64,000 bases of DNA from Escherichia phage vB_EcoM_EC001: the sequence record MN445185.1. The stretch is one strand, 5' to 3'. The translations under genes and the position numbers were made by a program. The notes beneath the pieces were generated by a model. The model saw nothing but the letters and a program-made list of their open reading frames with translations. It was not told the origin of the DNA and did no database searches. Positions 4,909 to 21,090 of this stretch are shown here, piece after piece. Positions within the stretch are counted from its first letter, which is position 1. Every line of letters starts with the position of its first letter.

Positions 4909-5769
4909 ATGTACAGCATTACTGATTTTATCAAAAGTTCAGATTTCCCCCTACCTCCAGACCACGAAGTATTGGCTAGCGATCCGTTAACCGATGCGGC
5001 CATTGTCCAGCTGGACCGTGACAAACGTCGTACTTACGTCGTGTTGGTCGAAGGAAAGAGCTACGGCCTGTCTTCTTACGACCTGGAGCAGCAAGAGCGC
5101 TTCCTCGATGAAAACCGCAAAACGTCAATGTATAGCGCTATCTCGCGCGCGTTGTGCAAGGTAATGGCGACGATCACGGACAGCAAAAAGCGCGTCGCCG
5201 TGCTACAGGGTATCAATGCGCTAACGACCAAAATCCAACAACTTGAAGGTTTCCATTGCCCACGATTGGAAGCCGCACAGAAGGATGCTAAGGGTGATGA
5301 GGCCATGGTGCTGTTTGGAGGCAATACTGTCTTTGCAACAGCTGAAGCTTGTTATCTCACCTATCCAACCTTTAACTATACGCCAATCAGCGACACCGTA
5401 GACGGGATTAAAGTAGAGAACGTCGTGCAATGGGGTCGCGCAAATCTCAAGTTTGTGATGTCCCATGAAGAAGAAAATCAAGACGGCCTTGGCCAGAAGA
5501 TTCAACGTTGGTTCACGGCACGTTTGGACGCCGACTGGGAAGCGCATGTTAACGCACAGCTTCGTAAATTTCACGCGGTGGTCGCATTGTTAAAAGAAAA
5601 TACTCCTGCCCCGAAACAATCGAAGGCACCGGTGGTTGGCTGGACGTGTTCCGGCTGTAACCGCAACCATGTCGCCACAGTACCGAGAACCCATCGCTAC
5701 ACTTCGCAGACGATGAACATTGCTTGTCCGGCTTGCGGCAAGATCAACGAAGTTGATTATAAACCGTAG
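4909..5769 (+). CDS. hypothetical protein with C-terminal zinc-ribbon (CSGC...CPAC)
   Basis: AAGGA 8 nt upstream of ATG; four Cys in CxxC...CxxC arrangement at C-terminus. Confidence 0.6.
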   Translation: MYSITDFIKSSDFPLPPDHEVLASDPLTDAAIVQLDRDKRRTYVVLVEGKSYGLSSYDLEQQERFLDENRKTSMYSAISRALCKVMATITDSKKRVAVLQGINALTTKIQQLEGFHCPRLEAAQKDAKGDEAMVLFGGNTVFATAEACYLTYPTFNYTPISDTVDGIKVENVVQWGRANLKFVMSHEEENQDGLGQKIQRWFTARLDADWEAHVNAQLRKFHAVVALLKENTPAPKQSKAPVVGWTCSGCNRNHVATVPRTHRYTSQTMNIACPACGKINEVDYKP

Positions 5770-5774
5770 TAGTA

Positions 5775-5815
5775 CCCCCTCTTACCTTCGGGTAAGAGGG
5801 TTTTATATTTATTTT
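5775..5815 (+). terminator. rho-independent terminator (UUCG loop)
   Basis: stem CCCCTCTTACC/GGTAAGAGGG then TTTTATATTTATTTT; same stem reused at 32790. Confidence 0.8.
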
Positions 5816-5820
5816 CCGAA

Positions 5821-5857
5821 AAGAAAATAAAAGGCGCTCTCTCCCGAAGGAGAGAGC
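5821..5857 (-). terminator. rho-independent terminator on minus strand
   Basis: minus-strand reading GCTCTCTCC-TTCG-GGAGAGAGC followed by GCCTTTTATTTTCTTTT; convergent with the plus-strand terminator. Confidence 0.6.
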
Positions 5858-6175
5858 TTATTCACATCCACTTAGAGGTTAACATGAATACCTTTATGCA
5901 ACAACTGCGTCAGCAACAGCTGAAACAAGTCGCTTTTCAACAACGTCTGCAAGAGGTTACCCGCCAACCGCAGACTTCCACCCGTACCATTAAAGGACTA
6001 GGAGGTGAGATAATACTCAACAAGAGATAACATGAATATTTGCATGGACTAACTGTACCCGAGTGTTCACAGCACTCGGGTTATTCCATGCATATAAATA
6101 GTTCGTCGTATTTTTTTTTGATCTTGGCAGGACGCATAAACTGCCCGTAGGGGAGCTTAGGCTCCCCAGTGTTCG

Positions 6176-7738
6176 TTAGAACAAATCATCACCCATTCCA
6201 CCGGTGAAGAAGTTGATAGACGACGCTGTTACGGTTTCTTCTTTATCACAATCCCAAGGCAGGATGCCAACATCCTGGAAAGGTATCACTGTGTAGTGAT
6301 AAGATTCTTTAGTATCGATAATGGTGCGGTGCTTACCGCGTTGAACTTCTAAGAAGCTATGGCCGTTGACCACACGCTTGTTAAAATACATTTCACCATC
6401 GGCCTCGTTATCAAGGCTCGAACAACTATCGTAAAGACCACGACCAGGTAAGTTCTTACAGAAACCTACCGGGTCTAACGCTTTTAAGCGCTTACCTTCT
6501 GGGGAAATCTGGTGTGGGGCAATTAAGAACCCACGGTTGCGTACCACTTGGATGTTACGAGCAATACGATAAATTTCTTTGATATCACTCCCGGCAATAC
6601 CGTTGCCGTGTCCTGCTTTGCTGATTGTGCCTAAGTAGTCTGCGCGAATGCCAACAACATGATAACCGCGACGACGTAAGTCGAGAATAAGGTCGTTGAT
6701 GTAGTGCACTTTAAAATCGGAGTTGGTGTGCTTTTGGAAAACGTAGTCCCAACCGTTTGCGCGAATCTTACCACAGAGGTAATCAGACATTGCTGTTGTG
6801 TGTGCTAACTTCTCTTCAGCGGTTGCATCCTGTGCAATGGTCATCTGTGGAACTTGTCCTTCAAAATGACCGTACAGTGCTTGATAGCCGTAAGCTAAGT
6901 TAACGTCGAGTTCGTTTTCTAAACTCAAGTCAAGAATAATTGGTTGCAGTGTGCCCTTCACATCCGCCATTACTTTCTCAGGCGTGTTGAAGATAGGAAT
7001 CGACAAGCTCAGTAAGAGACTGAACAAAGACTTACAGTTAAAAGGTAACGCCGGCATTAGCCACAGTTCTTCGGTAATCCCTTTGTTACAACCGAGCATT
7101 TGGTTAATGGCTTTCCAGCCCGTCTGCAAACCATTACCTGCTGCTTTCTTGTTAATCGAGTCGAACACTTTAACAAACGGAGCCCGATTATCTGTAACCA
7201 GCTCACCGACCAGCGATGGAATCTTATTATGAGAGCGTTCACCGAACGTAGATAGCGCCTCTTTGAGTTCGAGCACTGCGGTGTTCAGATCAACACGTGT
7301 CTCAGTTCCATTCAATGCTCCGAACGCGCGACCCATTTTTGTTTTGAGTTCGACGCTCTGTAAACATTGACGTAATTGGAAATAATATTGAGACAGTTGT
7401 CGATTAAGATGCTCGGTACGTTTGTCTTCTTCCTCGGGCAAATCGTCTTCGAGGAATTTGGTAATCGTATCGTATAGAGGACGTACTTGAGTGGTGGCCA
7501 GCTTCAAGCGCTTCATAACGCTCGCGTGGTCGTATTCCATGCCGCCGTCTATGATAGATGTGATAATGTCCTTGATCTCGATGAGTGCAAAGCGCTCTTC
7601 GCCATCTTCCGCATATTCCGGAAGCTTGATCTGCATCAGAACTTTTCTTATGACATCATGATCCTTGCTAGGGTCCGTCAGCATAGATTCTGTATACAGT
7701 GCGGCTAAGGCGGTTATCAACATCATTTTACTATTCAT
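6176..7738 (-). CDS. hypothetical protein (520 aa), function unknown
   Basis: long minus-strand ORF; no recognisable catalytic motif. Confidence 0.65.
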   Translation of the reverse strand: MNSKMMLITALAALYTESMLTDPSKDHDVIRKVLMQIKLPEYAEDGEERFALIEIKDIITSIIDGGMEYDHASVMKRLKLATTQVRPLYDTITKFLEDDLPEEEDKRTEHLNRQLSQYYFQLRQCLQSVELKTKMGRAFGALNGTETRVDLNTAVLELKEALSTFGERSHNKIPSLVGELVTDNRAPFVKVFDSINKKAAGNGLQTGWKAINQMLGCNKGITEELWLMPALPFNCKSLFSLLLSLSIPIFNTPEKVMADVKGTLQPIILDLSLENELDVNLAYGYQALYGHFEGQVPQMTIAQDATAEEKLAHTTAMSDYLCGKIRANGWDYVFQKHTNSDFKVHYINDLILDLRRRGYHVVGIRADYLGTISKAGHGNGIAGSDIKEIYRIARNIQVVRNRGFLIAPHQISPEGKRLKALDPVGFCKNLPGRGLYDSCSSLDNEADGEMYFNKRVVNGHSFLEVQRGKHRTIIDTKESYHYTVIPFQDVGILPWDCDKEETVTASSINFFTGGMGDDLF

Positions 7739-7752
7739 GGAGCATCCTTAAA

Positions 7753-8277
7753 ATGCAAATTCGTTTTAGTCCACCGTGGGAAGTTCAATCTAACATAGAT
7801 AAAGGGGCTGGCGTTAAAAAGTTGGAGGAACTCCAAGCAAGCTTCTTTAACTGGTTATATGACTGCTCGTCGGGCTTTAGTTCCATCATACTGCCAGTGA
7901 GTGACCCTATTTCGATTTATAAATCGATTATGGCACCACCTGCACTTCCGACTCTTTATTATGACCAGGTCTTAAACCTGGTTGAGAAAGGTACGAATGA
8001 AACCCTTGCTGATTTATATGGGGAATCATTCGACGGTCGTTTACGTTGGGTGTTCTCACAACGTGGCGATGTTGTTGTGGCGTCTTTTGCAGAAGCTAAA
8101 TCCGGACCGGGTTTTTCTTTAAGTGAAGACCACGCTGCGAAAAAGATGTTCTGCGCAGAACTTTTTAAATATATGCGTCCCAAGACTCGTGTCGTGGATG
8201 ATACGTTCAGTACGTCGACGCAGTTTGCTGCGCACGAAGTGCTGACGCAGTTGTACGCATGTCATTTATCTAAATAA
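7753..8277 (+). CDS. hypothetical protein immediately upstream of the abundant structural gene
   Basis: ATG at 7753 in frame with ORF-track 7699 ORF; only 14 bp from the divergent minus-strand start. Confidence 0.45.
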   Translation: MQIRFSPPWEVQSNIDKGAGVKKLEELQASFFNWLYDCSSGFSSIILPVSDPISIYKSIMAPPALPTLYYDQVLNLVEKGTNETLADLYGESFDGRLRWVFSQRGDVVVASFAEAKSGPGFSLSEDHAAKKMFCAELFKYMRPKTRVVDDTFSTSTQFAAHEVLTQLYACHLSK

Positions 8278-8289
8278 GGTAAACTTGAA

Positions 8290-10590
8290 ATGAAAGATAC
8301 CCGTATCGCTAGTCTGGACCAGCTGGTTCAGCAGGGCAATGCTCTGGTCGCTGCTGCCAAGGCAGGCTCTTCCGCTAATGACGTATGGCAAACCGTAGCC
8401 GTTGGCGAATCTGTACGTAAAAATGCTGCCGGCTTCACCAACCTGCGTGACACTGCTCAGCAGCACTACGAAGCTGTAAACCCTGGCAAAACCATGAGCC
8501 ACGCTGCTCAGGTTGCTTCTGCGATGATTCTGGCTGCTGCCGGTCACGAAGACGACTTCATGACCCGTGTTGCTGCCGAGAGCGCGAAGCCGGAATACGC
8601 CAGCTACATGCCGATCGCTATTTCTGGTGCAGCATCTCTGGCTGCTGACTACGGTAAAACTCCGCTGGTCGCAACTGAATACTACACCAACAAAGACCTG
8701 GACAAAAACCTGGGTCTGACCTGGACGCTGAACGTGCGTGCTCTGGAAACTCAATCCAAGTTTGCAGAAACCCTGTTCCCGACCATCACTGTGGACACCA
8801 ACGACGTCGGCATCACCGTTCGTACCAAAGTTACTACTGTATCTCGTGGTATCCTGAACGCCCTGCTGACCAAAGACGTGGTTGAAGACAACCGTCAGCC
8901 GCTGCATAACGCGCTGTCTAACCACAAAGTCCTGCAGGACGATGCTATCCGTATCGTACCTTACGTGATGGAAACCGGTGAGAACGCGAAGTTCTTCGTA
9001 TCCGAAGACATCATCGAAAACGAAAACGTTCAGCTGGGTCGTGTGCCGGCGTATCCGACCAACTACCTGAGCTTCTCTGAACGTCGTCTGAACCTGTTCC
9101 AGCTGTCTGCCCATCCGGGTATCGTGCAGGAAGGTTACGATGAAACCGACGAAATCGCACCGGGTGCAGCGCTGGGTAGCCTGCTGCTGTCTGTGCGTAA
9201 GCCGACTGAAGAAGCGAAAGATGGCGCGCTGATCAAACTGAACGTACGCGACATGCAGTTCGCTACCTTCCAGCGTCCTCCTGAAGGTGATGGCCGTGAG
9301 CTGGTCCTGCAGTTCCGTCGCACTGTGTTCTCCCTGAACGCCAAGTCTCTGGACTGGAAAGGTGCTGAAATCCCGGCACTGGCCGCTCTGGCACAGAACG
9401 ATTACACCATTCGTTATTCCATGAACATCAGCATGTCTCTGTTCACCAACGGTCAGTTCTCTGGTCGTGTTGACGTGACTGCACCGTCTCTGGAAATCGA
9501 AGGTCTGTACGACGCAACTGGTACTGCTGTTGATATCGAAAGCGGCACCGGTAAAGTTATCATCGACAACCTGAAACTGGAGCTGCTGGGCTGGCGCTTC
9601 GACGGTACTCGTACCAACGAGAACCGGAGAACCCAGGGCCTTCTGCTCGACCCGATTTGGGAACAAGAGAACTACAAACTGCAGTACGGTTCTCCGATCA
9701 TGACCAAATCTCCGGTTGGCGTTGAATACGACGACACCGAACGTCTGGACGACCTCGTTTCTGCGGTTAACATCCGTAACGAAATGCTGGCTATCACTCA
9801 GACTCTGTCTTACACCGAAGCGGTTAAGAACGCAGCTGCGTCCATGATCACTCCGTGGGACAAACCTGCTATCCGCGGCCTGGGCCGTCACTGGGTTGCT
9901 CCGTGGTACAGCGAAAGCGACTACGAAGTGGACAAAGTGATCCAGTCTCTGGATACCAAAGATGCGCTCATCAACGCCCGTCAGGGTCTGGTACAGCGTA
10001 TCGGCGACCAGGTAACTCGTGCTATCCAGGATTCTCGTTTCATGCCGGCTCTGCGCCTGCTGACTGCGGACCCGAACGCACTGCCGAAAGTTGTTATCGC
10101 AACTGACGAACCGACTGCTGCAATGCTGCTGCTGGTTCAGGGTGACCAGCGTCTGCTGGGCGATCGCTACGAGTACGAAGTTATCACCACCAACGATGAC
10201 CGCTGGCGTGTGAAGAACGAAGCTGACGGCAGCTGGACTCGCCGCCTGCAGTGGGTTCTGAAAGTTCCAACCGCTGATGACGGTTCTTACTGTGTTCTGA
10301 ACTGGGGTAACCACTTCTGGTCTCCGATCATGGTAACCAACATCAACATCCAGCGTAACGGCGCTACCAGCAAAGAGCTGGCAGTACAGCCTCGTAACGC
10401 GCACATCTGCCACTGCCCGATCACTGGTCTGATCTGGATTAAAGGTATCACCAAGTTCGTGGAAGAGAAACTGGCGTTCAACGTCACTACTACTTCCAAC
10501 GGTACTGGCGGTACTAATGGCGGTAATGCGGGTGATGTTGGCGGCGGCGCTACCCAGCCAGGTACTGGCGGTGAAGGCGCTGGCGGCTAA
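8290..10590 (+). CDS. abundant virion structural protein, 766 aa; major capsid protein candidate (tail sheath not excluded)
   Basis: extreme bias to enterobacterial optimal codons (CTG, CGT, GGT, ACC, AAA); size in range of jumbo-phage capsid proteins; Gly-rich C-terminal tail; strong terminator after. Confidence 0.5.
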   Translation: MKDTRIASLDQLVQQGNALVAAAKAGSSANDVWQTVAVGESVRKNAAGFTNLRDTAQQHYEAVNPGKTMSHAAQVASAMILAAAGHEDDFMTRVAAESAKPEYASYMPIAISGAASLAADYGKTPLVATEYYTNKDLDKNLGLTWTLNVRALETQSKFAETLFPTITVDTNDVGITVRTKVTTVSRGILNALLTKDVVEDNRQPLHNALSNHKVLQDDAIRIVPYVMETGENAKFFVSEDIIENENVQLGRVPAYPTNYLSFSERRLNLFQLSAHPGIVQEGYDETDEIAPGAALGSLLLSVRKPTEEAKDGALIKLNVRDMQFATFQRPPEGDGRELVLQFRRTVFSLNAKSLDWKGAEIPALAALAQNDYTIRYSMNISMSLFTNGQFSGRVDVTAPSLEIEGLYDATGTAVDIESGTGKVIIDNLKLELLGWRFDGTRTNENRRTQGLLLDPIWEQENYKLQYGSPIMTKSPVGVEYDDTERLDDLVSAVNIRNEMLAITQTLSYTEAVKNAAASMITPWDKPAIRGLGRHWVAPWYSESDYEVDKVIQSLDTKDALINARQGLVQRIGDQVTRAIQDSRFMPALRLLTADPNALPKVVIATDEPTAAMLLLVQGDQRLLGDRYEYEVITTNDDRWRVKNEADGSWTRRLQWVLKVPTADDGSYCVLNWGNHFWSPIMVTNINIQRNGATSKELAVQPRNAHICHCPITGLIWIKGITKFVEEKLAFNVTTTSNGTGGTNGGNAGDVGGGATQPGTGGEGAGG

Positions 10591-10620
10591 TAATCCGTAA
10601 GGATTACGTTGCCTAAGATT

Positions 10621-10659
10621 AGCTTACTCCCTTCGGGGAGTAAGCTTTTTCTTTTTTTC
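10621..10659 (+). terminator. rho-independent terminator (UUCG loop)
   Basis: AGCTTACTCCC-TTCG-GGGAGTAAGCT then T-run. Confidence 0.85.
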
Positions 10660-10666
10660 TAAAAAT

Positions 10667-10694
10667 TTATAGATAGATATTATCTTAGGGAGAG
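10667..10694 (+). promoter_or_regulatory. conserved promoter-like element, variant B (ATAGATAGATATTATCTTAGGGAGA)
   Basis: shares core with 31176 copy; directly follows terminator. Confidence 0.5.
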
Positions 10695-10725
10695 AGTCAT
10701 TCGGTTTTAACTTAAGGAGACAGTA

Positions 10726-10809
10726 ATGGAAGTCAATTTAGAGAGATCAAGACTAGTTGCACCGATGTTTGATGGGCGCGGTTTTATGGCGAACGGTCAC
10801 CACGTTTGA
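10726..10809 (+). CDS. possible 27-aa micro-protein
   Basis: AAGGAGA ribosome-binding site 7 nt upstream of ATG; lies between two promoter-like copies. Confidence 0.25.
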   Translation: MEVNLERSRLVAPMFDGRGFMANGHHV

Positions 10810-10865
10810 TACCCTAAAGTTTTTTACGTTAAGGGCACTGGGTATGAACCCGTGCCCAAAGTAAT

Positions 10866-10890
10866 CTGAGATAGATATTATCTACGTGAA
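10866..10890 (+). promoter_or_regulatory. conserved promoter-like element, variant B
   Basis: CTGAGATAGATATTATCTACGTGAA. Confidence 0.45.
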
Positions 10891-10922
10891 TAATTCTTTT
10901 GGTATTATTACTGGGATGTTCA

Positions 10923-11927
10923 ATGAACCGTTATGATTTAGACGTTCAGCCAACGCTAACCCAGCGGCCCATGCACCGTGGTGCCGTGTCGAAGACTATC
11001 ACGTACGAAAATAATACCGGGTTTCCCATATACGTCACTGAACTCAGTGGCGGGCATTTTGTTTTAGCCCCGTCGTCCACCACAGCGGCGGAATTTGGGA
11101 TTGTGATTTACGTGACCTATACGGTGTTTGCGAACGGTGCTAACCTATCTGGTTTGCGCGACGCACATTCGCCAAAGCAGTATGCGCAGATATGTAAGGA
11201 ATTAACTACGAACGGCGAAACAACGCTGATGTATGTAGTTGATGATATCGGAGCGTTAATGCGAGGCGACTTGGTGGTGTTGAAGAAGCTAGGAATGGCT
11301 TTCTCTACCCAACCAGTAAAACTCGATTCTGAGGTTATTGGTAAGCCAGGAGGGGATCGTAAAGAATTTGCCTTGGGCGTGGTAGTTGTACAGAAGTACG
11401 AAGACCCAGCACCTTTAAAGTGGCTGAGGTTCTATACAACGATGTTGGAAGTCGAACCGATTCGATCGAAGTATTACGACGAGGGTATATACATGGTAAT
11501 CGGTGGTGCGGAGTGCGTCGAAGGGGGTAAGATGATAATGTACTCTTTCGATGACCCGATGTCCCCGTTCCGGGCGTTTGCATCTGAAGATGAAGCGAGG
11601 CGTTATCGGTGGCTCGATAACATTCCAGAGTTGCGAGATGTTCGTGCGAAGCTGGAAGCCACGTATCAGGCCAAGTTGCAAGATCTCGATGAGAAAAAGA
11701 ATCGGCAAGACCTCGATTATCGTACACAACTTAATAATCTGGCGCTAGAGAAGGAGAGGATTAACACCCTTAACACAATCCAGACGAATGAGCTTAAGTT
11801 GCGTTCCGATGTTCGTAAAGACCAATACGAGTCCCGAGCTTATCAGCGAAAAGATAGCTCGGAGTTCTTGAAATCCATTCCCGCGTATTTGGCTGCAGGG
11901 GTAGCACTCGTTGGGATGATTCTCTGA
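10923..11927 (+). CDS. hypothetical protein with coiled-coil region and C-terminal hydrophobic anchor
   Basis: ORF-track ORF begins at TTG 10899; first ATG at 10923; C-terminus IPAYLAAGVALVGMIL. Confidence 0.55.
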   Translation: MNRYDLDVQPTLTQRPMHRGAVSKTITYENNTGFPIYVTELSGGHFVLAPSSTTAAEFGIVIYVTYTVFANGANLSGLRDAHSPKQYAQICKELTTNGETTLMYVVDDIGALMRGDLVVLKKLGMAFSTQPVKLDSEVIGKPGGDRKEFALGVVVVQKYEDPAPLKWLRFYTTMLEVEPIRSKYYDEGIYMVIGGAECVEGGKMIMYSFDDPMSPFRAFASEDEARRYRWLDNIPELRDVRAKLEATYQAKLQDLDEKKNRQDLDYRTQLNNLALEKERINTLNTIQTNELKLRSDVRKDQYESRAYQRKDSSEFLKSIPAYLAAGVALVGMIL

Positions 11928-11938
11928 GGGAGGCCGGT

Positions 11939-13717
11939 GTGTTTAAAGATGCGATTAGGAAGATTAAAGAGGCAGGCGAAATAGTGCCTTTTAATCGTGC
12001 AATTGCAGAAGGAGTTGGGTACACACAAGCTAAAGACGGGATACATGATCGTGTGGCAACCATTCTACGTCGTGAGTTGACGTATGATGAAATCGATAAC
12101 CCGAAATTACCAGAAGGGTTAACGGTATTAGGTTGTCGCCAAATGTCGCCGTTTGAAGCTTTTATCTTTAAGTTATCGAAGTCGGATAACAATTCACGAA
12201 ATAATCGTGGCCGGTCAATTATTAACATCTCATCCACTGATACGTATATGGTAATGGCCTCGTTCCGAGTTCCAGGCGATCCTCGCCCGGTGCAACGACC
12301 AATGAGCTTACCATTTATTCGTCGTGGCGGCTTAATGAACTACTACGGTACAACGTACCACGTAGCACCTGTAATCCACCAACCTGGTATTTGTCGTGAG
12401 CACGGTGGTATCTTTATTAACTTTGACTTCACCCGCAAGGTGTCTATCAAGTTCTGTAAGAAACCAACGAAGATTCTGGTGAATGGTCGCCCTGAGCAGC
12501 TGTTCTTGCCAGGTACATCGAATCTGTTTGTCTCAACCGGACAGATTGGACACGACACCGATGAGAAGCCGTTGATGTATTGGCTCTTCGGGCGCTACGG
12601 CTTTAAACAAGCTGTGAAGCGTTATGCGGGTGTTGATGTGGCGATTTGGCCAGCGATTAAAGTACGTGATGTGGACTTAACGAAGTATGTGGTGATTCAG
12701 TCCGGTGAGCCACAACTCGCGAAGACCATCCAGTACGTACTGTTGGTTAAACGTGAAGATATGCCTAACACCGATGCAGGGCGTTGGGATCAGAATGAAC
12801 ATCTGTTGCTGGTAGCGACTGCCGCATTCTTCAAAGCAGCGCACTACTACGCAGGTAAACAGAACAGTAAGAACGGTCGTGCACCAACACTGCCGGGGCT
12901 GTTTACACAGATTAACGAAATGGCAATGGACGAAGATATTGCGAACCTCAATTCTGCAGCCTCCTGGCGCGAAGTGTTGGGTCGTAGTATTCGCGGACTG
13001 AAGCCTTCGGATATCGAACTGAGTCGCAGTATGGACAGCCACTTCCAGGAATGTGAACGCTATGTCAACAGCACCTTCCGTGGTGAGCTGATGGCAAACG
13101 ATCCGTCCATCCCTGATGATTTGGATATGTTTGATTTCCTCTGGTACACCACGCAGCTGATGGTGCGTACTCGTCTTACCAAACAAGATGATATTCCGTC
13201 TATGTACGGAAAACGTCTCACGGTAACCGATTACTTACTGTTGGGCCAACGTGGCTTTACCACAACGATCTCGAAAATACGTTGGAAGCTGGGGCAGTTG
13301 GAACATCGGACTCCAGAGACAGCGGCGAAGTCTATTCGAGACGCACTGAACAAACAGATCGTGCTCAATCTGGTGATGCGCACCATTACGAGCAACGGCG
13401 GTATCAGTTTCTTCAATGCCTCTACAGAATCAATGGTATTGGCAGTGTCTACGCACGCCATCGGTCAAACCGAAACCGATGCTAAGCGTTCGAAGAAAGG
13501 AGGCAAGACCGTTAACTTGAACGACCGTACTAAGCACGCATCTGCGTCGCATCTGGAATGTGGTAACGTCTACTATATTCCTAAGTCGGCACCGTTTAAG
13601 GCAAACATCCTCAACCCGTACATGAAGACCAACCCAAGTTTGGTAATGATGCGGAACCCTAAACTGGACCCGTACATCAGACCGACCGAAGAAGACATTG
13701 CTAAAATCGGCCGCTAA
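11939..13717 (+). CDS. hypothetical protein (592 aa), likely virion or morphogenesis protein
   Basis: GTG start preceded by GGGAGG; lies between capsid-like and portal-like genes. Confidence 0.6.
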   Translation: MFKDAIRKIKEAGEIVPFNRAIAEGVGYTQAKDGIHDRVATILRRELTYDEIDNPKLPEGLTVLGCRQMSPFEAFIFKLSKSDNNSRNNRGRSIINISSTDTYMVMASFRVPGDPRPVQRPMSLPFIRRGGLMNYYGTTYHVAPVIHQPGICREHGGIFINFDFTRKVSIKFCKKPTKILVNGRPEQLFLPGTSNLFVSTGQIGHDTDEKPLMYWLFGRYGFKQAVKRYAGVDVAIWPAIKVRDVDLTKYVVIQSGEPQLAKTIQYVLLVKREDMPNTDAGRWDQNEHLLLVATAAFFKAAHYYAGKQNSKNGRAPTLPGLFTQINEMAMDEDIANLNSAASWREVLGRSIRGLKPSDIELSRSMDSHFQECERYVNSTFRGELMANDPSIPDDLDMFDFLWYTTQLMVRTRLTKQDDIPSMYGKRLTVTDYLLLGQRGFTTTISKIRWKLGQLEHRTPETAAKSIRDALNKQIVLNLVMRTITSNGGISFFNASTESMVLAVSTHAIGQTETDAKRSKKGGKTVNLNDRTKHASASHLECGNVYYIPKSAPFKANILNPYMKTNPSLVMMRNPKLDPYIRPTEEDIAKIGR

Positions 13718-13748
13718 TTATTACATCTCTTAAGGAGTATTATTTACA

Positions 13749-16088: not shown

Positions 16089-16101
16089 AAAAAGAAAAGG
16101 T

Positions 16102-16150
16102 ACCTCTCCCCGAAGGGAGAGGTAAACCTTATTTCTTTTTCTTTTTTTGT
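16102..16150. terminator. bidirectional terminator between convergent genes
   Basis: ACCTCTCCC-CGAA-GGGAGAGGT flanked by A-run upstream and T-run downstream. Confidence 0.8.
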
Positions 16151-18895
16151 TTAGAGGACGTTGTCTGGGTTGTCGTCGGTAGTTCCTTCACCACCTTCTG
16201 TGCCTTCCGTTCCCTCGGTAGTTGTTTCCGTGGTTTCGGTCGACTCAGTCGTTTCCCCTGTACTATCCCCGTCGGTTCCGTTATCCGTATCGAAATCGAG
16301 GTCTAAATCATCGTCACCCCCACCACCGAGATCTCCTTCGCCACCACCGGTGTCACCGCCCGCATCAAAACCACCGCTGAATCCGCCAGCAGATTCGTTA
16401 GGGTCAAGGTCAGCATTTTTCGCCAACGTTTCCAGACGACCTGTAAAACGTTTCGCCAACTGAATCAGCGTCTTCGAAGCAGCCATCGCTTCATCAGTCA
16501 TCATGGTGATGTTGTCTTGACGAGATTTATCGTCGTAAACCAGATCGAAGAAGTCAGTTTCAATGCCTTGTTTACGCAGCCAGTTGCGCGTATAGAAGGA
16601 TTTGATCATCGTCTTCAGATCGTTCGGGTCCATCGAGATGCCTTCTTGCTGGAGTTGCGCAGCAATGTCATCCGTTACAACCAGATCAGCCAGCTTCTCA
16701 AAGAACTCCGTACGTTTATCGAACAGCTCCATCTGCGAAGCTGCTGCAGAGGTGTCTGGCGGTGGTAAGGTTACTTTCATACCGTTGATAAACGCAGCCA
16801 GGTACTCAGAGACCTTTTTCGTAATCTGGTCAGTAGTCATCCCATTGCCGTTAGCATTGATATACTCTGCAATGATTTTAATCATCGCTGATTGCAACGA
16901 CGGGGAGGCCAACATCCCATTAACTACGTAACGTGTCAGTGGCTTAGAGAGAATCTCTTGCTTCTTAACAACTTGTTGCGTGACCAGCAACGATTTAGAG
17001 AAAATCTGTGAAGCGAATTCGATGTTCTCGGGGGTCATTACCAGGTCGGGGTCAACGCCAGCGATGTGACAAGTGCGACGTAACAGACCTTCGTCGAAAT
17101 CCTTATCCGGGTATTTATAATCCGGCGTAGTATCCGACACAGACACTTTGGTACTACCGTAGTAGTCGTTACCAATAACGTTAAACGCAATACCTGCGTT
17201 TGTCGTCATTGCCCAGGTGTCGTTCATGTCCCCCCACATCGGTTGACGACGGTTATAGGAGTTCATGATGTCTGTTTTCAGCTGGTCAATTGTTTTCTGA
17301 CCGTTCATGTCGTCTGGTGCCAACTCAATGTCGTACTGCATGTGACGTGCAGAGTTCAACACCGCAGAGTTCATGGTAGCGAACAACAGCGCCATACGGA
17401 CAGTAGAGATAACGAACGAGCGTTCGGTAATAGACACACCGATACCATCTTCATCAAAGTCCGTGGCAAAATAGCAAAGGTTTTCCGCAGGAATATAGAT
17501 AACCTGCGTGTGGCGTTTTGCCAGATGGCGCGCCAGCATGATACGGCTGAACGTTTCGGTTACCGTCATGCTAATCTCAGCACCACCCAACGCCTCACCC
17601 AACGCTTTTGTCAGCTGGTCTTCAGCAATCTCACCATAACGCGCTGTTAAGCGGTTAGCAATGTCTGGTGTGATTCGGGTTGTGTTGCCCATCCCCAGAT
17701 TCGCGCGGTTGATTGTCGAATCTACCATACCGTCGTTGTTCAGGTAGTTCATGAAGTTCGCATCCCCGTAAAGTGTGGAACGCGAGTTAATGAAGTTACC
17801 CATTTCGTCAACGATGGCCAGATAACCTATGGGGTTACGAACATCGTCACCGATAACGAGTGGGAGTGTGGACTCTGCTGGCAGTAATCGTTCCGTGTAT
17901 TCGATTTTGTTGGCATCGGAGAAACTCATCTTCGGTACTTCGCCGTAAAGCTTTTGCTCAGGCGTTTTCTGGTACGCTTCGTTGAGGTCGCCGATGTTGA
18001 TTAAACCGAGTTTTGCCTTCTCTTGTTCACTGTCTGTGAACTGGTCAGCGTTATACTCTGACGCACCTGTCGGCGTAGAAGGTTGTTCATATGCGTACTG
18101 CTCTAACTGACCGAACAGGCCGGTGCGAGCATTCTCCTGTGCTACACGGCGATAAGCCTCCGGTAGCAGGGTAATACGCGGGTTGTCGGTGATAACGATA
18201 TCCAGGGAAGCTAACATACCGTCTGCTTTAAACGGACTGTTAGGGGCTGCTGCAAAGTTAAGTTTAATGGTTTGTGGCTTGGTGGGCTTGTCAGCTCCAC
18301 GTGCACGACCCAGAATACTTTCTACACCAACCTTCGGTTTGTTCTCACCACCAATCTTGCCTAAAATACCCAACTGACGTTCAAAGAAGTCAGATTGGCT
18401 ACGGCGCAACGATTCGGTTGCAACAGACGGCTTTAAGCCGAAGAGTTCATCGAATCCGGTATCTGAAATCAGCAACACCGGGCTCGCGCCTTTGGATTTC
18501 AGTGCATCGTAAATCCACTGATACAGTTTGTTGGGTAACTGGCGCGTGTGGTCATGGAATTCACGCACAGGTTCCAACAACTGTTGACGCAGGTCGATCG
18601 GGATATCAGCCACGTTGTCGTAAATCAGCGTGGTGTTAATCAAATCTTTTGTGGACAGGAGTGAGGAGGTCGCGATGGTAACAATGACCTCTAACTCAGG
18701 GAGCGCATCAAAGATACGTTCGGCATTTTTAACGGTGCGAATGCGGCTACTCGCAATGCCCGTGAGTTCTGTACGGGTTGGTGTAACGCCACCATCTTCA
18801 CGCTTACCGCGTTGCTGCTGAGCCGACGGGCTCGTGGACTTACGCAGTATGGCAGCTACCGCGGGGTCGCCCGTTAATTTACTAATATCTTCCAT
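16151..18895 (-). CDS. large virion protein, 914 aa; portal protein candidate
   Basis: size typical of jumbo-phage portals; acidic Gly/Thr-rich C-terminal tail; no Walker A, so not terminase. Confidence 0.35.
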   Translation of the reverse strand: MEDISKLTGDPAVAAILRKSTSPSAQQQRGKREDGGVTPTRTELTGIASSRIRTVKNAERIFDALPELEVIVTIATSSLLSTKDLINTTLIYDNVADIPIDLRQQLLEPVREFHDHTRQLPNKLYQWIYDALKSKGASPVLLISDTGFDELFGLKPSVATESLRRSQSDFFERQLGILGKIGGENKPKVGVESILGRARGADKPTKPQTIKLNFAAAPNSPFKADGMLASLDIVITDNPRITLLPEAYRRVAQENARTGLFGQLEQYAYEQPSTPTGASEYNADQFTDSEQEKAKLGLINIGDLNEAYQKTPEQKLYGEVPKMSFSDANKIEYTERLLPAESTLPLVIGDDVRNPIGYLAIVDEMGNFINSRSTLYGDANFMNYLNNDGMVDSTINRANLGMGNTTRITPDIANRLTARYGEIAEDQLTKALGEALGGAEISMTVTETFSRIMLARHLAKRHTQVIYIPAENLCYFATDFDEDGIGVSITERSFVISTVRMALLFATMNSAVLNSARHMQYDIELAPDDMNGQKTIDQLKTDIMNSYNRRQPMWGDMNDTWAMTTNAGIAFNVIGNDYYGSTKVSVSDTTPDYKYPDKDFDEGLLRRTCHIAGVDPDLVMTPENIEFASQIFSKSLLVTQQVVKKQEILSKPLTRYVVNGMLASPSLQSAMIKIIAEYINANGNGMTTDQITKKVSEYLAAFINGMKVTLPPPDTSAAASQMELFDKRTEFFEKLADLVVTDDIAAQLQQEGISMDPNDLKTMIKSFYTRNWLRKQGIETDFFDLVYDDKSRQDNITMMTDEAMAASKTLIQLAKRFTGRLETLAKNADLDPNESAGGFSGGFDAGGDTGGGEGDLGGGGDDDLDLDFDTDNGTDGDSTGETTESTETTETTTEGTEGTEGGEGTTDDNPDNVL

Positions 18896-18906: not shown

Positions 18907-21090
18907 ATGCAGAGATTTAACATTTTTCGTGACCAGGCTATCCAGTTAGCGAAATCCCTGATTGTCAAATCAGAGAGCATCGCACAACAGATGAACCTGG
19001 CAATAACCAAAAACGGCGGTTTCGTTTCCGAGAACCGTGAGACGTGGCGGTATTACCTACACTTAGCAGGTAAACGACATGCAATCGACAAGCCGATATA
19101 CATTACGTCACTCGACACGCAAGAGCAGATAGAGTTAACGACGCAGAACCTCTCCCGTCATAAAAAGACCTCAAACGTATATCGTTCTAACCCGGAGTAT
19201 ATCGACGACTTAATCGCCGAGTATCCGGACTACGCAGTATATATTCGAGGCACTTTCAATCCGATTGATATTGCATACGCGATACGTGTCGATGACTGCT
19301 CAATTTTGTATTACGATCCTGCTTTAGTTGAACCGCAGGAGACGTCGTTAATTACACATATTGAGAACTTTATTCGTGCGGCACATGTGCGGTTCATGGC
19401 CGATGGCTGGAAAGTTCACAACGACTGTTTCGTACTGGCCTTTTACATGCAACAGTACCCGGTGTGGCCGGGGCTTATCATGTACATCCGCAAACGGTTA
19501 CAGTTTACGACCGAAACGCACTCCTACTACGTGACCGAGTTCTTGGCTTCACACCAAGAACTGCACGAGTTCATGCCGTACCTGACCCTCAAGCAGAAAT
19601 TCACACTGTATCGCAATATCCGTTACTGGGAACGTAACTCTGGTAAGGAAGAAATCTTTACCTGGATGATTGACACCCTGCTGACGGGTTGGGGTATGCC
19701 TGCTGTTGGATATAAGGTCGCCCAGCAGATTCACGACCCGACGACGGGCAGTGATGATGACCTGACACCACTCCCGATCGGCTACCAGTCATCGCTTAAC
19801 TATACTGAACGTGACTCGGGTCGTGACCTGGACATTGTTAGCACAACTGACATCATCCGGAAAGAAATCAATCTGGCGTACAATAACCCAGTGCACGAAC
19901 CTGACTATCAGGAAGACCTCGATCGGCGTTTGAGCTTGACGCAGTATCCGAACCTGCCAACGAAGTTAGTTGAGGTAACGGCGATTGACCCAGAGGCCAT
20001 CGAACGTTGGGAATTTATGCATGGCTTGTTCAACGAGTGGATGCATATCGTGGCACGTGGACAGTACAACATTTACCACGAAATTCTTAACCCAACGAAC
20101 GGGGATACGCTAAAGCTCACTTCAAAAGAGCTGCTGGCACTGTTCTTGTATGCGAGCTTCAAAGGTTATTCTGGCGTAGCACTGGATAAGATCCCGGTGT
20201 GGAACGTGTTTGGTGTGTTAATCAAACGCTGGGTTGGTTTTGATGAGATGGAGCAGTATCTGCCAAGCTCATGGCCCGGTCGTTTTAATGCGTTGATTAA
20301 CTATTACACGGACACGCATCATGAAGTTATCGGTAATTTGACGTCTGCAGATGAGTTGTACGATGAAATCAGCGAAATCATGGTGCAGAAGCGTCGTCGT
20401 TACCGTTACTCGTATAATCGACACAAGCTAGCCGACCGTGCTGCCGGCACAATGTTGTTTACCTACCACTACCGTGACTATAAGTGCGATCTTGACCTAC
20501 CTTACCGCGATTACGACGAGTTCTTCAAAACGTTTGGTTTTGATTACAAGTTAGTCTCCGCGGAAACCTGGCAGGACATCGCCACCGACGCTTTAAACGT
20601 GGCCACTAATCTGGAAACACGTGCGTCTGTCTCACAAGCTGAAATACAACGCGCGATGGTGCGGTTAATGACGAAACTCTCGTCGTATACTGTCCATTTT
20701 GCCGCACGTATGGGTTCTGACACCTACGATGTCACCGACCCAGTCATCCCGATTCTGGATGATATTCTCGCAGAGGCTGCCGATACAACAAATATCATTT
20801 ACCCTCTGACAGACGTGCAGCGTGTGAGCCGTAGTTCATTCATGACGACGGATAAGCCCATCCCTGTCGCTCCCGTGATAAAGGAAATGGCAATCCCGCA
20901 ACGTATTAAGTTGCGGATGAATGTCTACCCTGGTATCCGCGTGAAGGTCGAGCAGGATGTTGTGGTCGATATGGTACAGCCGCCTATTGATATTATCCGT
21001 GTGCGGACGTCATTTGAGGAGTGGACGCTTGCCGAGCGCGTGGCCGACCGTGACATGGATGGCTTCCGGTTAGACCAATTACCAAAGTGA
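18907..21090 (+). CDS. large hypothetical protein (about 728 aa), probably structural
   Basis: first ATG at 18907 (ORF-track ORF starts at TTG 18895); divergent from portal candidate with about 11 bp spacing; no ATPase motifs. Confidence 0.55.
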   Translation: MQRFNIFRDQAIQLAKSLIVKSESIAQQMNLAITKNGGFVSENRETWRYYLHLAGKRHAIDKPIYITSLDTQEQIELTTQNLSRHKKTSNVYRSNPEYIDDLIAEYPDYAVYIRGTFNPIDIAYAIRVDDCSILYYDPALVEPQETSLITHIENFIRAAHVRFMADGWKVHNDCFVLAFYMQQYPVWPGLIMYIRKRLQFTTETHSYYVTEFLASHQELHEFMPYLTLKQKFTLYRNIRYWERNSGKEEIFTWMIDTLLTGWGMPAVGYKVAQQIHDPTTGSDDDLTPLPIGYQSSLNYTERDSGRDLDIVSTTDIIRKEINLAYNNPVHEPDYQEDLDRRLSLTQYPNLPTKLVEVTAIDPEAIERWEFMHGLFNEWMHIVARGQYNIYHEILNPTNGDTLKLTSKELLALFLYASFKGYSGVALDKIPVWNVFGVLIKRWVGFDEMEQYLPSSWPGRFNALINYYTDTHHEVIGNLTSADELYDEISEIMVQKRRRYRYSYNRHKLADRAAGTMLFTYHYRDYKCDLDLPYRDYDEFFKTFGFDYKLVSAETWQDIATDALNVATNLETRASVSQAEIQRAMVRLMTKLSSYTVHFAARMGSDTYDVTDPVIPILDDILAEAADTTNIIYPLTDVQRVSRSSFMTTDKPIPVAPVIKEMAIPQRIKLRMNVYPGIRVKVEQDVVVDMVQPPIDIIRVRTSFEEWTLAERVADRDMDGFRLDQLPK

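What the first reader, a model, noticed from the sequence alone, without database searches (positions are those of the whole stretch)
7739..7752. Divergent gene pairs with almost no intergenic space
Minus-strand gene 6176-7738 and plus-strand gene 7753-8277 start 14 bp apart; portal-like gene 16151-18895 (minus) and 18907-21090 (plus) start about 11 bp apart. No room exists for two divergent promoters, so each gene's promoter must lie inside the neighbour's coding sequence, or one ORF of each pair is mis-called. This is either an unusual transcription architecture or a pointer to wrong starts.
Basis: inference. Interest (0 to 1): 0.35.

Follow-up and report, generated by a model that had tools for sequence, protein, structure and literature searches.

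The report
Back-to-back genes with buried promoters
Two pairs of oppositely oriented genes in this giant Salmonella phage really do start 11-14 bases apart; the tiny gap holds only the two ribosome-binding sites, and the phage's own RNA polymerase most likely starts from four-base TATG promoters buried inside the neighbouring genes, as already mapped in the related phage phiKZ.

Summary
The window is an SPN3US-like Seoulvirus, a phiKZ-like nucleus-forming jumbo phage. The DnaB-like helicase (6176-7738, minus) and a 174-aa gene (7753-8277, plus, just upstream of the major capsid gene) start 14 nt apart. The portal (16151-18895, minus) and a 727-aa virion-protein gene (18907-21090, plus) start 11 nt apart.

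All four starts are conserved from Met1. The gaps stay at 11-15 nt in 17-19 genomes spanning five genera, so the mis-called-ORF reading is rejected.

Each spacer is two Shine-Dalgarno sequences placed back to back, so both mRNAs must begin inside the neighbour's coding sequence.

Candidate promoter cores are antisense TATG motifs that are invariant even at synonymous sites:
- TTCTTATGA at 7645-7653 (plus), pointing to gp74 and the capsid gene. It fixes the rare codons ATA-AGA in the helicase.
- CTTTTTATGA at 19158-19167 (minus), pointing to the portal.
- TATG at 7794-7797 (minus), pointing to the helicase.

In phiKZ the same gene pairs are divergent. Published start-site mapping there places the portal's late promoter (AATTTTATGA) inside the neighbouring gene, and places P119L upstream of the gene preceding the capsid gene.

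The architecture looks unusual against the sigma-70 model but is expected for this phage family. The start sites in this phage are predictions, not measurements.

The parts
6176..7738 (-). DnaB-like replicative helicase CDS (520 aa). It is a single minus-strand gene embedded in a plus-strand gene array.
   Evidence: ORF. RefSeq annotation of SPN3US YP_009153367. phrog_3213 matches residues 1-520 and Pfam divDNAB matches 150-517. The N-terminus MN(S/N)KMMLITALA is conserved in 18 genomes.
7739..7752 (.). 14-nt divergent spacer GGAGCATCCTTAAA, made of two back-to-back Shine-Dalgarno sequences. GGAG at 7739-7742 serves the plus gene (10 nt before its ATG). AAGGA on the minus strand (the complement of 7745-7749) serves the helicase (6 nt before its ATG).
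   Evidence: Sequence. TTCATGGAGCA[T/A]CCTT is invariant in 19 genomes with a gap of 11-14 nt. The 11-nt run TTCATGGAGCA (7734-7744) is one of 18 invariant runs of at least 11 nt in a 29.5-kb five-genus alignment.
7753..8277 (+). 174-aa CDS (SPN3US 'gp74' in the literature numbering). It is the positional counterpart of phiKZ gp119 and the first gene of the major-capsid operon.
   Evidence: phrog_8266 matches residues 1-174. Identity is 58-82% across five genera from Met1. Variable sites by codon position are 0.52/0.44/0.78. Only 12 nt separate it from the capsid gene at 8290. No BLASTP similarity to phiKZ gp119 was found, so the link rests on synteny only.
8290..10590 (+). Major capsid protein gene, presumably co-transcribed with 7753-8277.
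   Evidence: Annotation. In phiKZ, transcription unit TU092 carries gp119 and gp120 from P119L.
7645..7653 (+). Candidate late promoter core TTCTTATGA (TATG at 7649-7652, predicted start at G 7652, 101 nt upstream of the ATG at 7753). It lies antisense inside helicase codons 29-32 and is the proposed counterpart of phiKZ P119L.
   Evidence: Invariant in 18/18 genomes. It fixes the rare codons ATA (10% of Ile codons) and AGA (5% of Arg codons). Binomial P=0.006 for antisense TATG invariance in the helicase. The same 8-mer TTCTTATG lies in the RP12 intergenic region, ATCTTATG in PCH45 and TTGCTATG in phiKZ P119L, each upstream of the homologous operon.
7218..7232 (+). Second invariant plus-strand TATG block GGAATCTTATTATGA (TATG at 7228-7231), antisense in helicase codons 169-174 and 522 nt upstream of 7753. 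It may be a distal or antisense promoter.
   Evidence: It is a 15-nt invariant run in 18 genomes and in the five-genus alignment. phiKZ also has a mapped plus-strand start site inside its helicase CDS (P062, 117303).
7794..7797 (-). Candidate helicase promoter core: TATG on the minus strand (CATA on plus), with the predicted start at 7794, 56 nt upstream of the helicase ATG. It lies inside codons 14-15 of the plus-strand gene. An AT-rich patch (AACTTTTTAAC on the minus strand, about 7813-7823) lies about 24 nt upstream.
   Evidence: 18/18 genomes keep it, including the rare ATA codon for Ile15. It is one of only three invariant CATA in 29.5 kb. phiKZ and RP12 have TATGTT(T)AG / TATGTAGG in the helicase-sense strand of their wide gaps. 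The resemblance to the phiKZ middle-promoter layout (an AT-rich motif near -24; PMC4666361) is my inference.
16151..18895 (-). Portal protein CDS (914 aa, SPN3US gp81). It is a single minus-strand gene.
   Evidence: phrog_3004. Annotation. Portal identity and the N-terminal propeptide peptides come from PMC5694885.
18896..18906 (.). 11-nt divergent spacer TGGGGTCTCCG. GGGG at 18897-18900 is the SD of the plus gene (6 nt before its ATG). GGAG on the minus strand (the complement of CTCC 18902-18905) is the SD of the portal (6 nt before its ATG).
   Evidence: Sequence. [T/C]GGGGTCTCCG plus 0-4 nt occurs in 14 genomes, and CCGGAGTTGTCTCCA (GGAG...CTCC) occurs in the Derbicusvirus-like ones. The gap is 11-15 nt in all 17.
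18907..21090 (+). 727-aa virion-protein CDS (counterpart of phiKZ gp128) and the first gene of a long plus-strand array.
   Evidence: phrog_3222 matches residues 1-725. Annotated 'putative virion structural protein 9'. The same divergent pairing with the portal is seen in phiKZ, PCH45 and RP12.
19158..19167 (-). Candidate portal late promoter CTTTTTATGA on the minus strand (TATG at 19162..19159, predicted start at 19159, 264 nt upstream of the portal ATG). It lies antisense in codons 84-87 of 18907-21090.
   Evidence: TATG is kept in 17/17 genomes, and it is the only conserved antisense TATG in that gene (P=0.033). The pattern YTTYTTATGA occurs 3 times in the 240-kb SPN3US genome, and two of the three are this site and 7644-7653. 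phiKZ late promoter P070 (start 130258...CAAATTTTATGA) is mapped inside gp128 and drives a monocistronic portal transcript.
18086..18093 (+). Weak candidate promoter for 18907-21090: TTCATATG (part of a CATATG palindrome), with the predicted start at 18093, 814 nt upstream and antisense in the portal CDS.
   Evidence: It is the only plus-strand TATG conserved (17/17) in the portal CDS (P=0.029). The distance is large and no phiKZ counterpart has been mapped, so confidence is low.
6150..6167 (+). GC-rich hairpin (GGGGAGC-TTAG-GCTCCCC) in the convergent gap below the helicase stop codon. A second hairpin at about 6057-6083 is followed by a T-run. Both are likely terminators that isolate the helicase from upstream plus-strand transcription.
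16101..16124 (.). Perfect 10-bp hairpin with T-rich tails on both strands, in the convergent gap below the portal stop codon. It is a likely bidirectional terminator.

Best explanation
Both junctions are genuine and selectively maintained. The phage is a phiKZ-like jumbo phage (Chimalliviridae). By analogy with phiKZ, it does not use host sigma-70 RNA polymerase. Its non-virion RNA polymerase recognises a promoter whose only sequence-specific element is about 4 nt (TATG) lying on the transcription start site.

Such a promoter needs no dedicated intergenic DNA, so the space between divergent genes has shrunk to the minimum that still holds two ribosome-binding sites. Each 11-15 nt spacer is two Shine-Dalgarno sequences back to back, each abutting the other gene's start codon.

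The promoters sit inside the neighbour's coding sequence, on its antisense strand:
- TTCTTATGA at 7645-7653 (in helicase codons 29-32) drives the gp74-major capsid operon.
- TATG at 7797..7794 (in gp74 codons 14-15) drives the helicase.
- CTTTTTATGA at 19167..19158 (in gp82) drives the portal.
- The promoter of 18907-21090 is not confidently located. The best candidate is TTCATATG at 18086-18093.

A necessary consequence is that the paired mRNAs are complementary at their 5' ends, by an estimated 143 nt at the first junction.

What is shown: the starts, the spacer anatomy, the conservation, the synonymous-site constraint, the genome-wide TATG avoidance, and the phiKZ start sites at the homologous places. 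What is inferred: that transcription in this phage starts at the named positions, and the temporal classes of the genes.
For: Identity and family: the window is 98% identical to SPN3US. phiKZ-type phages transcribe independently of host RNAP, from early AT-rich promoters and late TATG(+1) promoters (PMC7598289; PMC4666361; PMC12809450).

Starts: they are conserved across five genera.

Spacer: the dual-SD design is invariant. The same design is seen at two other SPN3US junctions of 25 and 29 nt.

Isolation: hairpin terminators lie in both convergent gaps.

Antisense TATG pointing at the junction is invariant in each of the four flanking genes. The binomial P values are 0.006, 0.21, 0.029 and 0.033, and my Fisher combination of these gives about 7e-4. 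Sense-strand TATG is invariant at 0/3, 2/5, 0/6 and 0/5 sites.

Rare codons ATA and AGA are fixed at 7645-7653.

TATG and CATA rank second and third of 256 4-mers for cross-genus invariance, while AATG scores 0/131.

TATG (z=-17) and CATA (z=-13) are among the most depleted 4-mers in SPN3US coding sequences compared with synonymous-codon shuffles, alongside SD-like GAGG/GGAG. Antisense TATG density is 0.98 per kb.

Cross-family support: TTCTTATG (RP12) and ATCTTATG (PCH45) lie in the intergenic region upstream of the homologous operon, and one TATG lies on each strand of the wide phiKZ and RP12 gaps.

Experimental support in phiKZ (ONT-cappable-seq, bioRxiv 10.1101/2023.10.13.562163, supplement): P063 (P119L, start 117616) gives a gp119+MCP transcript. 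P070 (start 130258, late...AATTTTATGA) lies inside the gp128 CDS and gives a portal-only transcript. P062 starts inside the helicase CDS. Five start sites (P064-P068) lie in gp119. I had predicted 130257 from the sequence before reading that table.
Against: No transcript data exist for SPN3US or its close relatives in the searched literature, so every start site here is a prediction.

TATG is not enriched in SPN3US upstream intergenic regions over a Markov-1 expectation (72 observed against 71.4 expected).

The TATG-binding pocket of phiKZ gp123 is only partly conserved in the window's homologue (11939-13717). F151, H331, Q466, S402 and R155 are kept and Y406 becomes W, but H185, N186, Y399, S334 and K158 are changed, in an alignment at 22% identity. 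The motif read by this polymerase could therefore differ.

The predicted leaders for the portal (264 nt) and especially for 18907-21090 (814 nt) are long. No conserved TATG lies nearer to those starts.

Clusters of synonymous invariance also occur at sites without TATG, such as helicase codons 88-90. Synonymous constraint alone therefore does not identify a promoter.

The extended motif YTTYTTATGA was derived from the two sites it is said to unite, so its rarity in the genome is not an independent test.
Confidence: 0.72

Rival explanations
1. One ORF of each pair is mis-called, or has a wrong start, and the true genes leave a conventional intergenic promoter region.
For: The 174-aa ORF has no Pfam match and no known function. 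Its third-codon positions are less variable than in neighbouring genes (0.78 against 0.92-0.97).
Against: All four proteins have full-length PHROG matches from residue 1-4. N-termini are conserved from Met1 across five genera, and indels occur only in multiples of three. A properly spaced SD precedes each start. RefSeq uses the same starts. Peptides from the portal's N-terminal propeptide were observed (PMC5694885). A same-sized gene occupies the same position in phiKZ, where it is annotated as a structural head protein.
Confidence: 0.03
2. There are no local promoters. The plus-strand genes 7753 onward and 18907 onward are expressed by read-through from distant upstream plus-strand promoters, with transcription running antisense across the whole helicase and portal genes.
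For: Almost every gene in the window is on the plus strand, so long plus-strand transcripts are plausible. phiKZ shows long and interleaved transcription units (PMC10914365). The best candidate for 18907-21090 is already 814 nt away.
Against: Strong hairpins with T-tails lie in both convergent gaps, at 6057-6083, 6150-6167 and 16101-16124. Read-through does not explain how the minus-strand helicase and portal are transcribed. Invariant antisense TATG motifs lie in the flanks. In phiKZ the homologous capsid operon and the portal each have their own mapped late promoter.
Confidence: 0.1
3. The invariant spacer is itself a compact bidirectional promoter. Transcription starts inside the 11-14 nt gap and gives leaderless or very short-leader mRNAs, and the apparent SD sequences are really polymerase contacts.
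For: The spacer is the most conserved non-coding stretch in the region. nvRNAP promoters overlap the start site (PMC4666361). An AT-rich TAATTTACT lies about 24 nt upstream of position 18903 (my reading).
Against: Neither spacer contains TATG. The conserved letters are exactly SD-like (GGAG, AAGGA, GGGG) and lie 6-10 nt from each ATG. When the spacer sequence changes, as in the Derbicusvirus-like genomes, it keeps GGAG...CTCC rather than any other word. SD-like words are otherwise avoided in coding sequence. The 25- and 29-nt junctions elsewhere in SPN3US show the same dual-SD layout with different sequence. phiKZ's portal start site lies 106 nt upstream, not in its 35-nt gap.
Confidence: 0.07
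4. Host sigma-70 RNA polymerase promoters overlapping the coding sequences drive these genes.
For: One 9/12 sigma-70-like match (TTTACT-16-TAAAAT) lies at 7727-7754.
Against: Sigma-70-like matches are no more frequent than in shuffled sequence (3 against 3.8 expected, and 5 against 4.6). That match would start transcription downstream of the ATG at 7753. phiKZ-type infection is independent of host RNAP (PMC7598289, PMC4666361), and SPN3US encodes both phage RNAP sets.
Confidence: 0.02

Closest known systems
phiKZ late promoter P119L (P063), the model promoter of the phiKZ non-virion RNA polymerase
   Same: It lies upstream of the small gene that precedes the major capsid gene, and it is divergent from the DnaB-like helicase. 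It has a TATG core with the start at G, and it drives a two-gene transcript (gp119 plus the capsid gene). The candidate at 7645-7653 shares TT-N-CT/TT-ATG and the same position and orientation.
   Different: In phiKZ it lies in a 211-nt intergenic region, 47 nt from the ATG. Here the gap is 14 nt and the motif lies inside helicase codons 29-32, 101 nt from the ATG. The two downstream proteins show no detectable sequence similarity. No transcript data exist for this phage.
phiKZ late promoter P070 (start 130258), which drives the portal gene gp129
   Same: The portal is divergent from the gp128 homologue across a very short gap (35 nt in phiKZ, 11 nt here). The promoter is embedded antisense in the neighbour's coding sequence. 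The core TTTTATGA(C) is shared with 19158-19167.
   Different: The distance to the portal ATG is 106 nt in phiKZ and 264 nt here. The phiKZ site is measured and this one is predicted.
Intragenic promoters in other compact phage genomes (for example T4 late promoters, which use a short TATAAATA element)
   Same: A short promoter word tolerated inside upstream coding sequence lets genes be packed with almost no intergenic DNA (general knowledge, not tested here).
   Different: The polymerase and recognition mechanism differ. In phiKZ a beta-like subunit pocket reads the non-template TATG at the start site (PMC12809450). Here the promoters lie on the antisense strand of a divergent neighbour, which forces complementary 5' leaders.
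Excludon-type or head-to-head overlapping divergent transcription units in bacteria
   Same: Divergent genes whose 5' leaders overlap and are complementary, which allows mutual antisense interference (general knowledge).
   Different: No evidence here of any regulatory outcome. The overlap is inferred from predicted start sites only.

Membership tests
phiKZ-type nvRNAP late promoter | [quoted passage not shown] | tested here: met
   TATG at 7649-7652 (+), at 19162..19159 (-) and at 7797..7794 (-) is invariant in 17-18 genomes.
phiKZ-type nvRNAP late promoter | Transcription initiates at the G of TATG | not testable with these tools
   No transcript 5'-end data for SPN3US-like phages were found. 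It has been measured only at the homologous phiKZ sites.
phiKZ-type nvRNAP late promoter | The phage encodes the nvRNAP beta-like subunit (gp123 homologue) with the TATG-binding pocket | tested here: inconclusive
   A homologue is present at 11939-13717 (22% identity). F151, H331, Q466, S402 and R155 are kept and Y406 becomes W. H185, N186, Y399, S334, K158 and K190 are changed (residue list from PMC12809450).
phiKZ-type nvRNAP late promoter | The motif behaves as a functional word genome-wide (avoided where it is not used) | tested here: met
   TATG has z=-17 and CATA z=-13 against synonymous-codon shuffles, while AATG has z=-0.7. However, TATG is not enriched in intergenic regions.
phiKZ-type nvRNAP late promoter | Position orthologous to a mapped phiKZ promoter | tested here: met
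   The same divergent gene pairs occur in phiKZ, with P063 and P070 at the corresponding places. For gp74 and gp119 the orthology is positional only.
Chimalliviridae / Seoulvirus (SPN3US-like jumbo phage) | Nucleotide identity and gene order matching SPN3US | tested here: met
   98% identity over 15.2 kb with the same gene order.
Shine-Dalgarno-led translation initiation (all four genes) | A purine-rich anti-SD complement 5-10 nt upstream of the start codon | tested here: met
   GGAG+10, AAGGA+6, GGGG+6 and GGAG+6, conserved or replaced by equivalent words. Actual ribosome use was not tested.
Divergent sigma-70 promoter pair | -35 and -10 hexamers for each gene in the intergenic region | tested here: not met
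   The gaps are only 11-14 nt. Sigma-70-like matches in the flanks are at or below the shuffle expectation.
phiKZ-type early (vRNAP) promoter | An AT-rich motif of about 10-13 nt (here GATA[G/T]ATATTA[T/C]C, similar to phiKZ ...TATATTAC) centred near -10 | tested here: not met
   The motif has 18 hits against 3.5 expected in the window, in plus-strand intergenic regions. None lies at either junction. The nearest is a 2-mismatch hit at 19095-19107 (+). phiKZ early promoter sequences were used for comparison.
Excludon-like antisense regulation | Overlapping complementary 5' leaders that affect each other's expression | not testable with these tools
   An overlap of 143 nt (7652-7794) follows from the predicted start sites. 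There are no expression data.

The most novel reading that the evidence does not exclude
The obligatory head-to-head overlap acts as a conserved temporal switch. Once the very strong late capsid-operon promoter inside the helicase gene fires, its 101-nt leader is antisense to the helicase ribosome-binding site and first 29 codons. Polymerases also collide head-on. Together these shut off the replicative helicase as the phage moves from replication to assembly. The 11-15 nt spacing and the embedded promoters would then be selected for this coupling, not merely for genome compaction.
Probability: 0.2. Interest if true: 0.55.

Novelty: new member of a known kind. Interest (0 to 1): 0.3.

Why it matters
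SPN3US is the genetic model for phiKZ-like jumbo phages, yet I found no published promoter map for it.

This analysis gives base-precise, testable predictions for the promoters of its major capsid operon, portal and replicative helicase.

It also shows that the counterpart of the best-studied phiKZ promoter (P119L) has been absorbed into a coding sequence in at least five genera.

The result illustrates how a 4-nt promoter lets divergent genes shrink their spacing to the ribosome-binding-site limit. It warns annotators that near-zero divergent gaps in these phages are not start-codon errors. The broader principle is already implicit in phiKZ transcriptome data.

Tried and rejected
- BLASTP of the 174-aa protein against phiKZ gp119 found nothing (E=1.2), so their equivalence rests on synteny only.
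- A nine-sequence alignment that included distant homologues was too divergent to seed a locus search. I used the five-genus alignment instead.
- Rfam found nothing credible across 5500-21500.
- The invariant palindrome at 8148-8170 folds no better than shuffled sequence (z=-1.8).
- A test for TATG enrichment in SPN3US upstream intergenic regions was negative (72 against 71.4 expected).
- The comparison of the gp123 promoter-binding pocket was inconclusive.
- My codon alignment of the major capsid gene failed because the frames were mis-extracted (0 usable columns). I therefore could not compare capsid-gene synonymous constraint with that of gp74.
- Ceyssens et al. 2014, the original phiKZ promoter map, is not held. 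Supplements of the published Putzeys 2024, 201phi2-1 and Wicke papers are not held either. The bioRxiv version of Putzeys et al. supplied the phiKZ start-site tables.
- SPN3US papers do not mention gp73, gp74 or gp82 by name in their text, so I have no proteomic confirmation for 7753-8277 itself.
- Sigma-70 promoter scans were at chance level.
- No nearer conserved TATG exists for 18907-21090. The TATG at 18848-18851 in the window (56 nt upstream) is not conserved.
Full report
**What the window is**

The 15 kb around the finding is 98% identical to Salmonella phage SPN3US and its relatives (genus Seoulvirus), which are phiKZ-like jumbo phages. RefSeq annotation of SPN3US gives these identities:
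- 6176-7738 (minus): DnaB-like replicative helicase.
- 7753-8277 (plus): a hypothetical protein lying 12 nt upstream of the major head protein gene (8290-10590).
- 16151-18895 (minus): a virion structural protein, which the SPN3US literature identifies as the portal, gp81 (PMC5694885).
- 18907-21090 (plus): 'putative virion structural protein 9'.

PHROG profiles match all four proteins over their full length from residue 1-4. Pfam finds a divergent DnaB ATPase domain in the helicase. The helicase and the portal are the only two minus-strand genes of 100 aa or more in the 64-kb window that look real.

**Checking the observation**

The coordinates are exact:
- CAT at 7736-7738, spacer 7739-7752 (14 nt), ATG at 7753.
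- CAT at 18893-18895, spacer 18896-18906 (11 nt), ATG at 18907.

Across the whole SPN3US genome the 17 divergent junctions have gaps of 11, 14, 25, 29, 57, 63, 66, 67, 70, 72, 76, 98, 124, 163, 180, 206 and 280 nt. The two junctions in the finding are therefore the tight end of a genome that is compact throughout.

**Are the starts right?**

Yes. Annotated relatives from four further genera all show the same two divergent pairs, with gaps of 11-15 nt. These are Erskinevirus Asesino, Machinavirus pEa_SNUABM_42, Wellingtonvirus pEa_SNUABM_11 and Derbicusvirus Phobos.

IMG/VR contigs raise the sample to 19 non-identical sequences at the helicase junction and 17 at the portal junction, with nucleotide identity to the window as low as 58-62%. 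The N-termini are conserved from Met1.

ORF 7753-8277 stays open at 174-180 aa in all genomes. It shows coding periodicity, with variable-site fractions of 0.52, 0.44 and 0.78 at codon positions 1, 2 and 3.

**Anatomy of the spacers**

- At the first junction CAT-GGAGCA[T/A]CCTT(0-3 nt)-ATG is essentially invariant. GGAG is the Shine-Dalgarno sequence (SD) of the plus gene. Its near-complement end reads AAGGA on the minus strand, 6 nt before the helicase ATG.
- At the second junction CAT-[T/C]GGGGTCTCCG(0-4 nt)-ATG gives GGGG for the plus gene and GGAG for the portal, each 6 nt from its ATG.
- The Derbicusvirus-like genomes replace this with CCGGAGTTGTCTCCA, which is again GGAG...CTCC.
- The 25- and 29-nt junctions elsewhere in SPN3US have the same back-to-back SD layout.

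Each SD abuts the other gene's start codon. An SD-bearing 5' leader therefore cannot fit in the gap. Both mRNAs must begin inside the neighbour's coding sequence, and they must be complementary at their 5' ends.

**Why this is feasible**

phiKZ-type phages transcribe with their own virion and non-virion multisubunit RNA polymerases.
- Early promoters carry an AT-rich element of about 10 nt.
- Late promoters carry only 5'-TATG-3', with the G as +1 (PMC7598289; PMC4666361).
- In phiKZ this word is read on the non-template strand by a pocket in the beta-like subunit gp123 (PMC12809450).

Sigma-70-like matches near the junctions are at chance level. A repeated AT-rich motif, GATA[G/T]ATATTA[T/C]C, resembles phiKZ early promoters. 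It lies in plus-strand intergenic regions of the window but not at either junction.

**Locating the promoters by comparative analysis**

Codon alignments gave these results.
- In the helicase, only 21 of 239 amino-acid-invariant degenerate codons are codon-invariant.
- Two clusters of these coincide with plus-strand (antisense) TATG. One is TTCTTATGA at 7645-7653 (codons GTC ATA AGA). The other is GGAATCTTATTATGA at 7218-7232.
- ATA supplies 10% of Ile codons and AGA 5% of Arg codons in SPN3US. Arg31 is the only one of 12 invariant Arg columns with a fixed codon.
- In gp74 the minus-strand TATG at 7797..7794 is kept in 18/18 genomes through a fixed ATA codon.
- In gp82 the only conserved antisense TATG (17/17) is at 19162..19159, within G(G/A)T(C/T)TT(T/C)TTATGA.
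- In the portal the only conserved plus-strand TATG (17/17) is at 18090-18093.

So each of the four flanking genes carries an invariant antisense TATG that points at the junction. The binomial P values are 0.006, 0.21, 0.029 and 0.033. Sense-strand TATG is invariant at 0/3, 2/5, 0/6 and 0/5 sites.

In a 29.5-kb five-genus alignment, CATA and TATG rank second and third of 256 4-mers for invariance, while AATG scores 0/131. Two of the three invariant CATA lie just upstream of the only two minus-strand genes.

Genome-wide, TATG (z=-17) and CATA (z=-13) are among the most depleted 4-mers in SPN3US coding sequences relative to synonymous-codon shuffles. They sit alongside GATC, AATT and the SD-like GAGG/GGAG. 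That is the pattern expected of a functional word that is avoided where it is not wanted.

**Cross-family and experimental support**

The same gene pairs are divergent in distant chimalliviruses with wider gaps:

| Phage | Helicase junction gap | Portal junction gap |
|---|---|---|
| phiKZ | 211 nt | 35 nt |
| PCH45 | 49 nt | 24 nt |
| RP12 | 224 nt | 88 nt |

Where there is room, the gap upstream of the gp119-like/capsid operon contains TTCTTATG (RP12), ATCTTATG (PCH45) or TTGCTATG (phiKZ). The helicase-sense strand of the phiKZ and RP12 gaps carries TATGTT(T)AG / TATGTAGG.

From sequence alone I predicted a phiKZ portal start at 130257, at AAATTTTATGAC inside gp128. The ONT-cappable-seq tables of Putzeys et al. 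(bioRxiv 10.1101/2023.10.13.562163, supplement) list the following:
- P070: start 130258, late promoter, giving a monocistronic gp129 transcript.
- P063: start 117616, which is P119L, giving a gp119+gp120 transcript.
- P062: start 117303, inside the helicase CDS.
- P064-P068: five further start sites in gp119, all feeding the capsid gene.

**Read-through as an alternative**

Read-through is unlikely. Hairpins with T-tails occupy both convergent gaps, at about 6057-6083, 6150-6167 and 16101-16124. The last is a perfect 10-bp bidirectional hairpin. Read-through also cannot supply the minus-strand genes.

**Weak points**

- No transcript data exist for this phage group.
- TATG is not enriched in SPN3US intergenic regions.
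- The gp123 pocket is only partly conserved.
- The predicted leaders of the portal (264 nt) and of 18907-21090 (814 nt) are long, and the latter promoter is essentially unassigned.
- Synonymous-invariant clusters also exist without TATG, for example helicase codons 88-90.

**Verdict**

The mis-annotation reading is wrong. The 'promoters inside the neighbour' reading is right in kind. The arrangement looks odd by sigma-70 standards but is expected for phiKZ-like phages.

What is new is modest:
- The dual-SD minimal spacer is conserved across five genera.
- The P119L counterpart has moved into helicase codons 29-32.
- Concrete start-site predictions are now available for a genetic model phage.

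A possible regulatory role for the forced 5' antisense overlap remains speculative.

Noticed in passing
window 7753-8277: The 174-aa gene has far stronger synonymous-site conservation than its neighbours. 39% of amino-acid-invariant degenerate codons are codon-invariant in 18 genomes, against 9% for the helicase, 5% for the portal and 3% for gp82. It carries conserved plus-strand TATG at 7858, 7960 and 8017. In phiKZ, five mapped start sites (P064-P068) lie in the homologous gp119 region, all feeding the capsid gene, so these TATG may be internal capsid-gene promoters.
   Followed up: partly
window 8148-8170: A 23-nt stretch, GTTCTGCGCAGAACTTTTTAAAT (a 14-nt palindrome followed by a T-run), is invariant across five genera. 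It lies inside the 174-aa gene, about 120 nt before the capsid gene start. Its fold is not better than shuffled sequence (z=-1.8) and it has no Rfam match. Its function is unknown; it could be an attenuator, a processing site or a protein-binding site.
   Followed up: partly
window 7469-7477: Helicase codons 88-90 (CTA TAC GAT; ATCGTATAG on the plus strand) are nucleotide-invariant in 18 genomes and contain no TATG. This is unexplained.
   Followed up: no
window 3845, 10672, 10870, 31176, 32877, 48123, 52667 (all plus strand): The AT-rich motif GATA[G/T]ATATTA[T/C]C is repeated (18 hits with up to 2 mismatches against 3.5 expected) and sits in intergenic gaps. It closely resembles phiKZ early (virion RNAP) promoters (...GATATATATTAC...), so these are probably the early promoters of this phage.
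   Followed up: partly
SPN3US genome (L003-L007), whole: Compared with synonymous-codon shuffles of all coding sequences, the most depleted 4-mers are GATC (z=-22) and AATT (z=-19), followed by TATG, GAGG, AAAA and CATA. The two palindromes suggest avoidance of restriction or methylation sites.
   Followed up: no
SPN3US 50881/50907 and 212327/212357 (outside the window): Two more divergent junctions, of 25 and 29 nt, have the same back-to-back Shine-Dalgarno layout (for example CTCCGGAG). The design is therefore general in this genome.
   Followed up: partly
window 8266-10413 (minus): A 715-aa ORF runs antisense through the major capsid gene. It is not annotated in any relative examined and is most likely a by-product of the capsid gene's codon bias.
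   Followed up: no
window 16101-16124: A perfect 10-bp hairpin (TACCTCTCCC-CGAA-GGGAGAGGTA) with T-rich tails on both strands lies between the convergent ends of a plus-strand gene and the portal. It is probably a bidirectional terminator.
   Followed up: no
L013 (Xanthomonas phage Xoo-sp14) 25979/25989: A distant chimallivirus also has a 9-nt divergent gap at its helicase, next to a small extra ORF. Extreme compaction of this junction has therefore arisen more than once, or one start there is mis-annotated.
   Followed up: no
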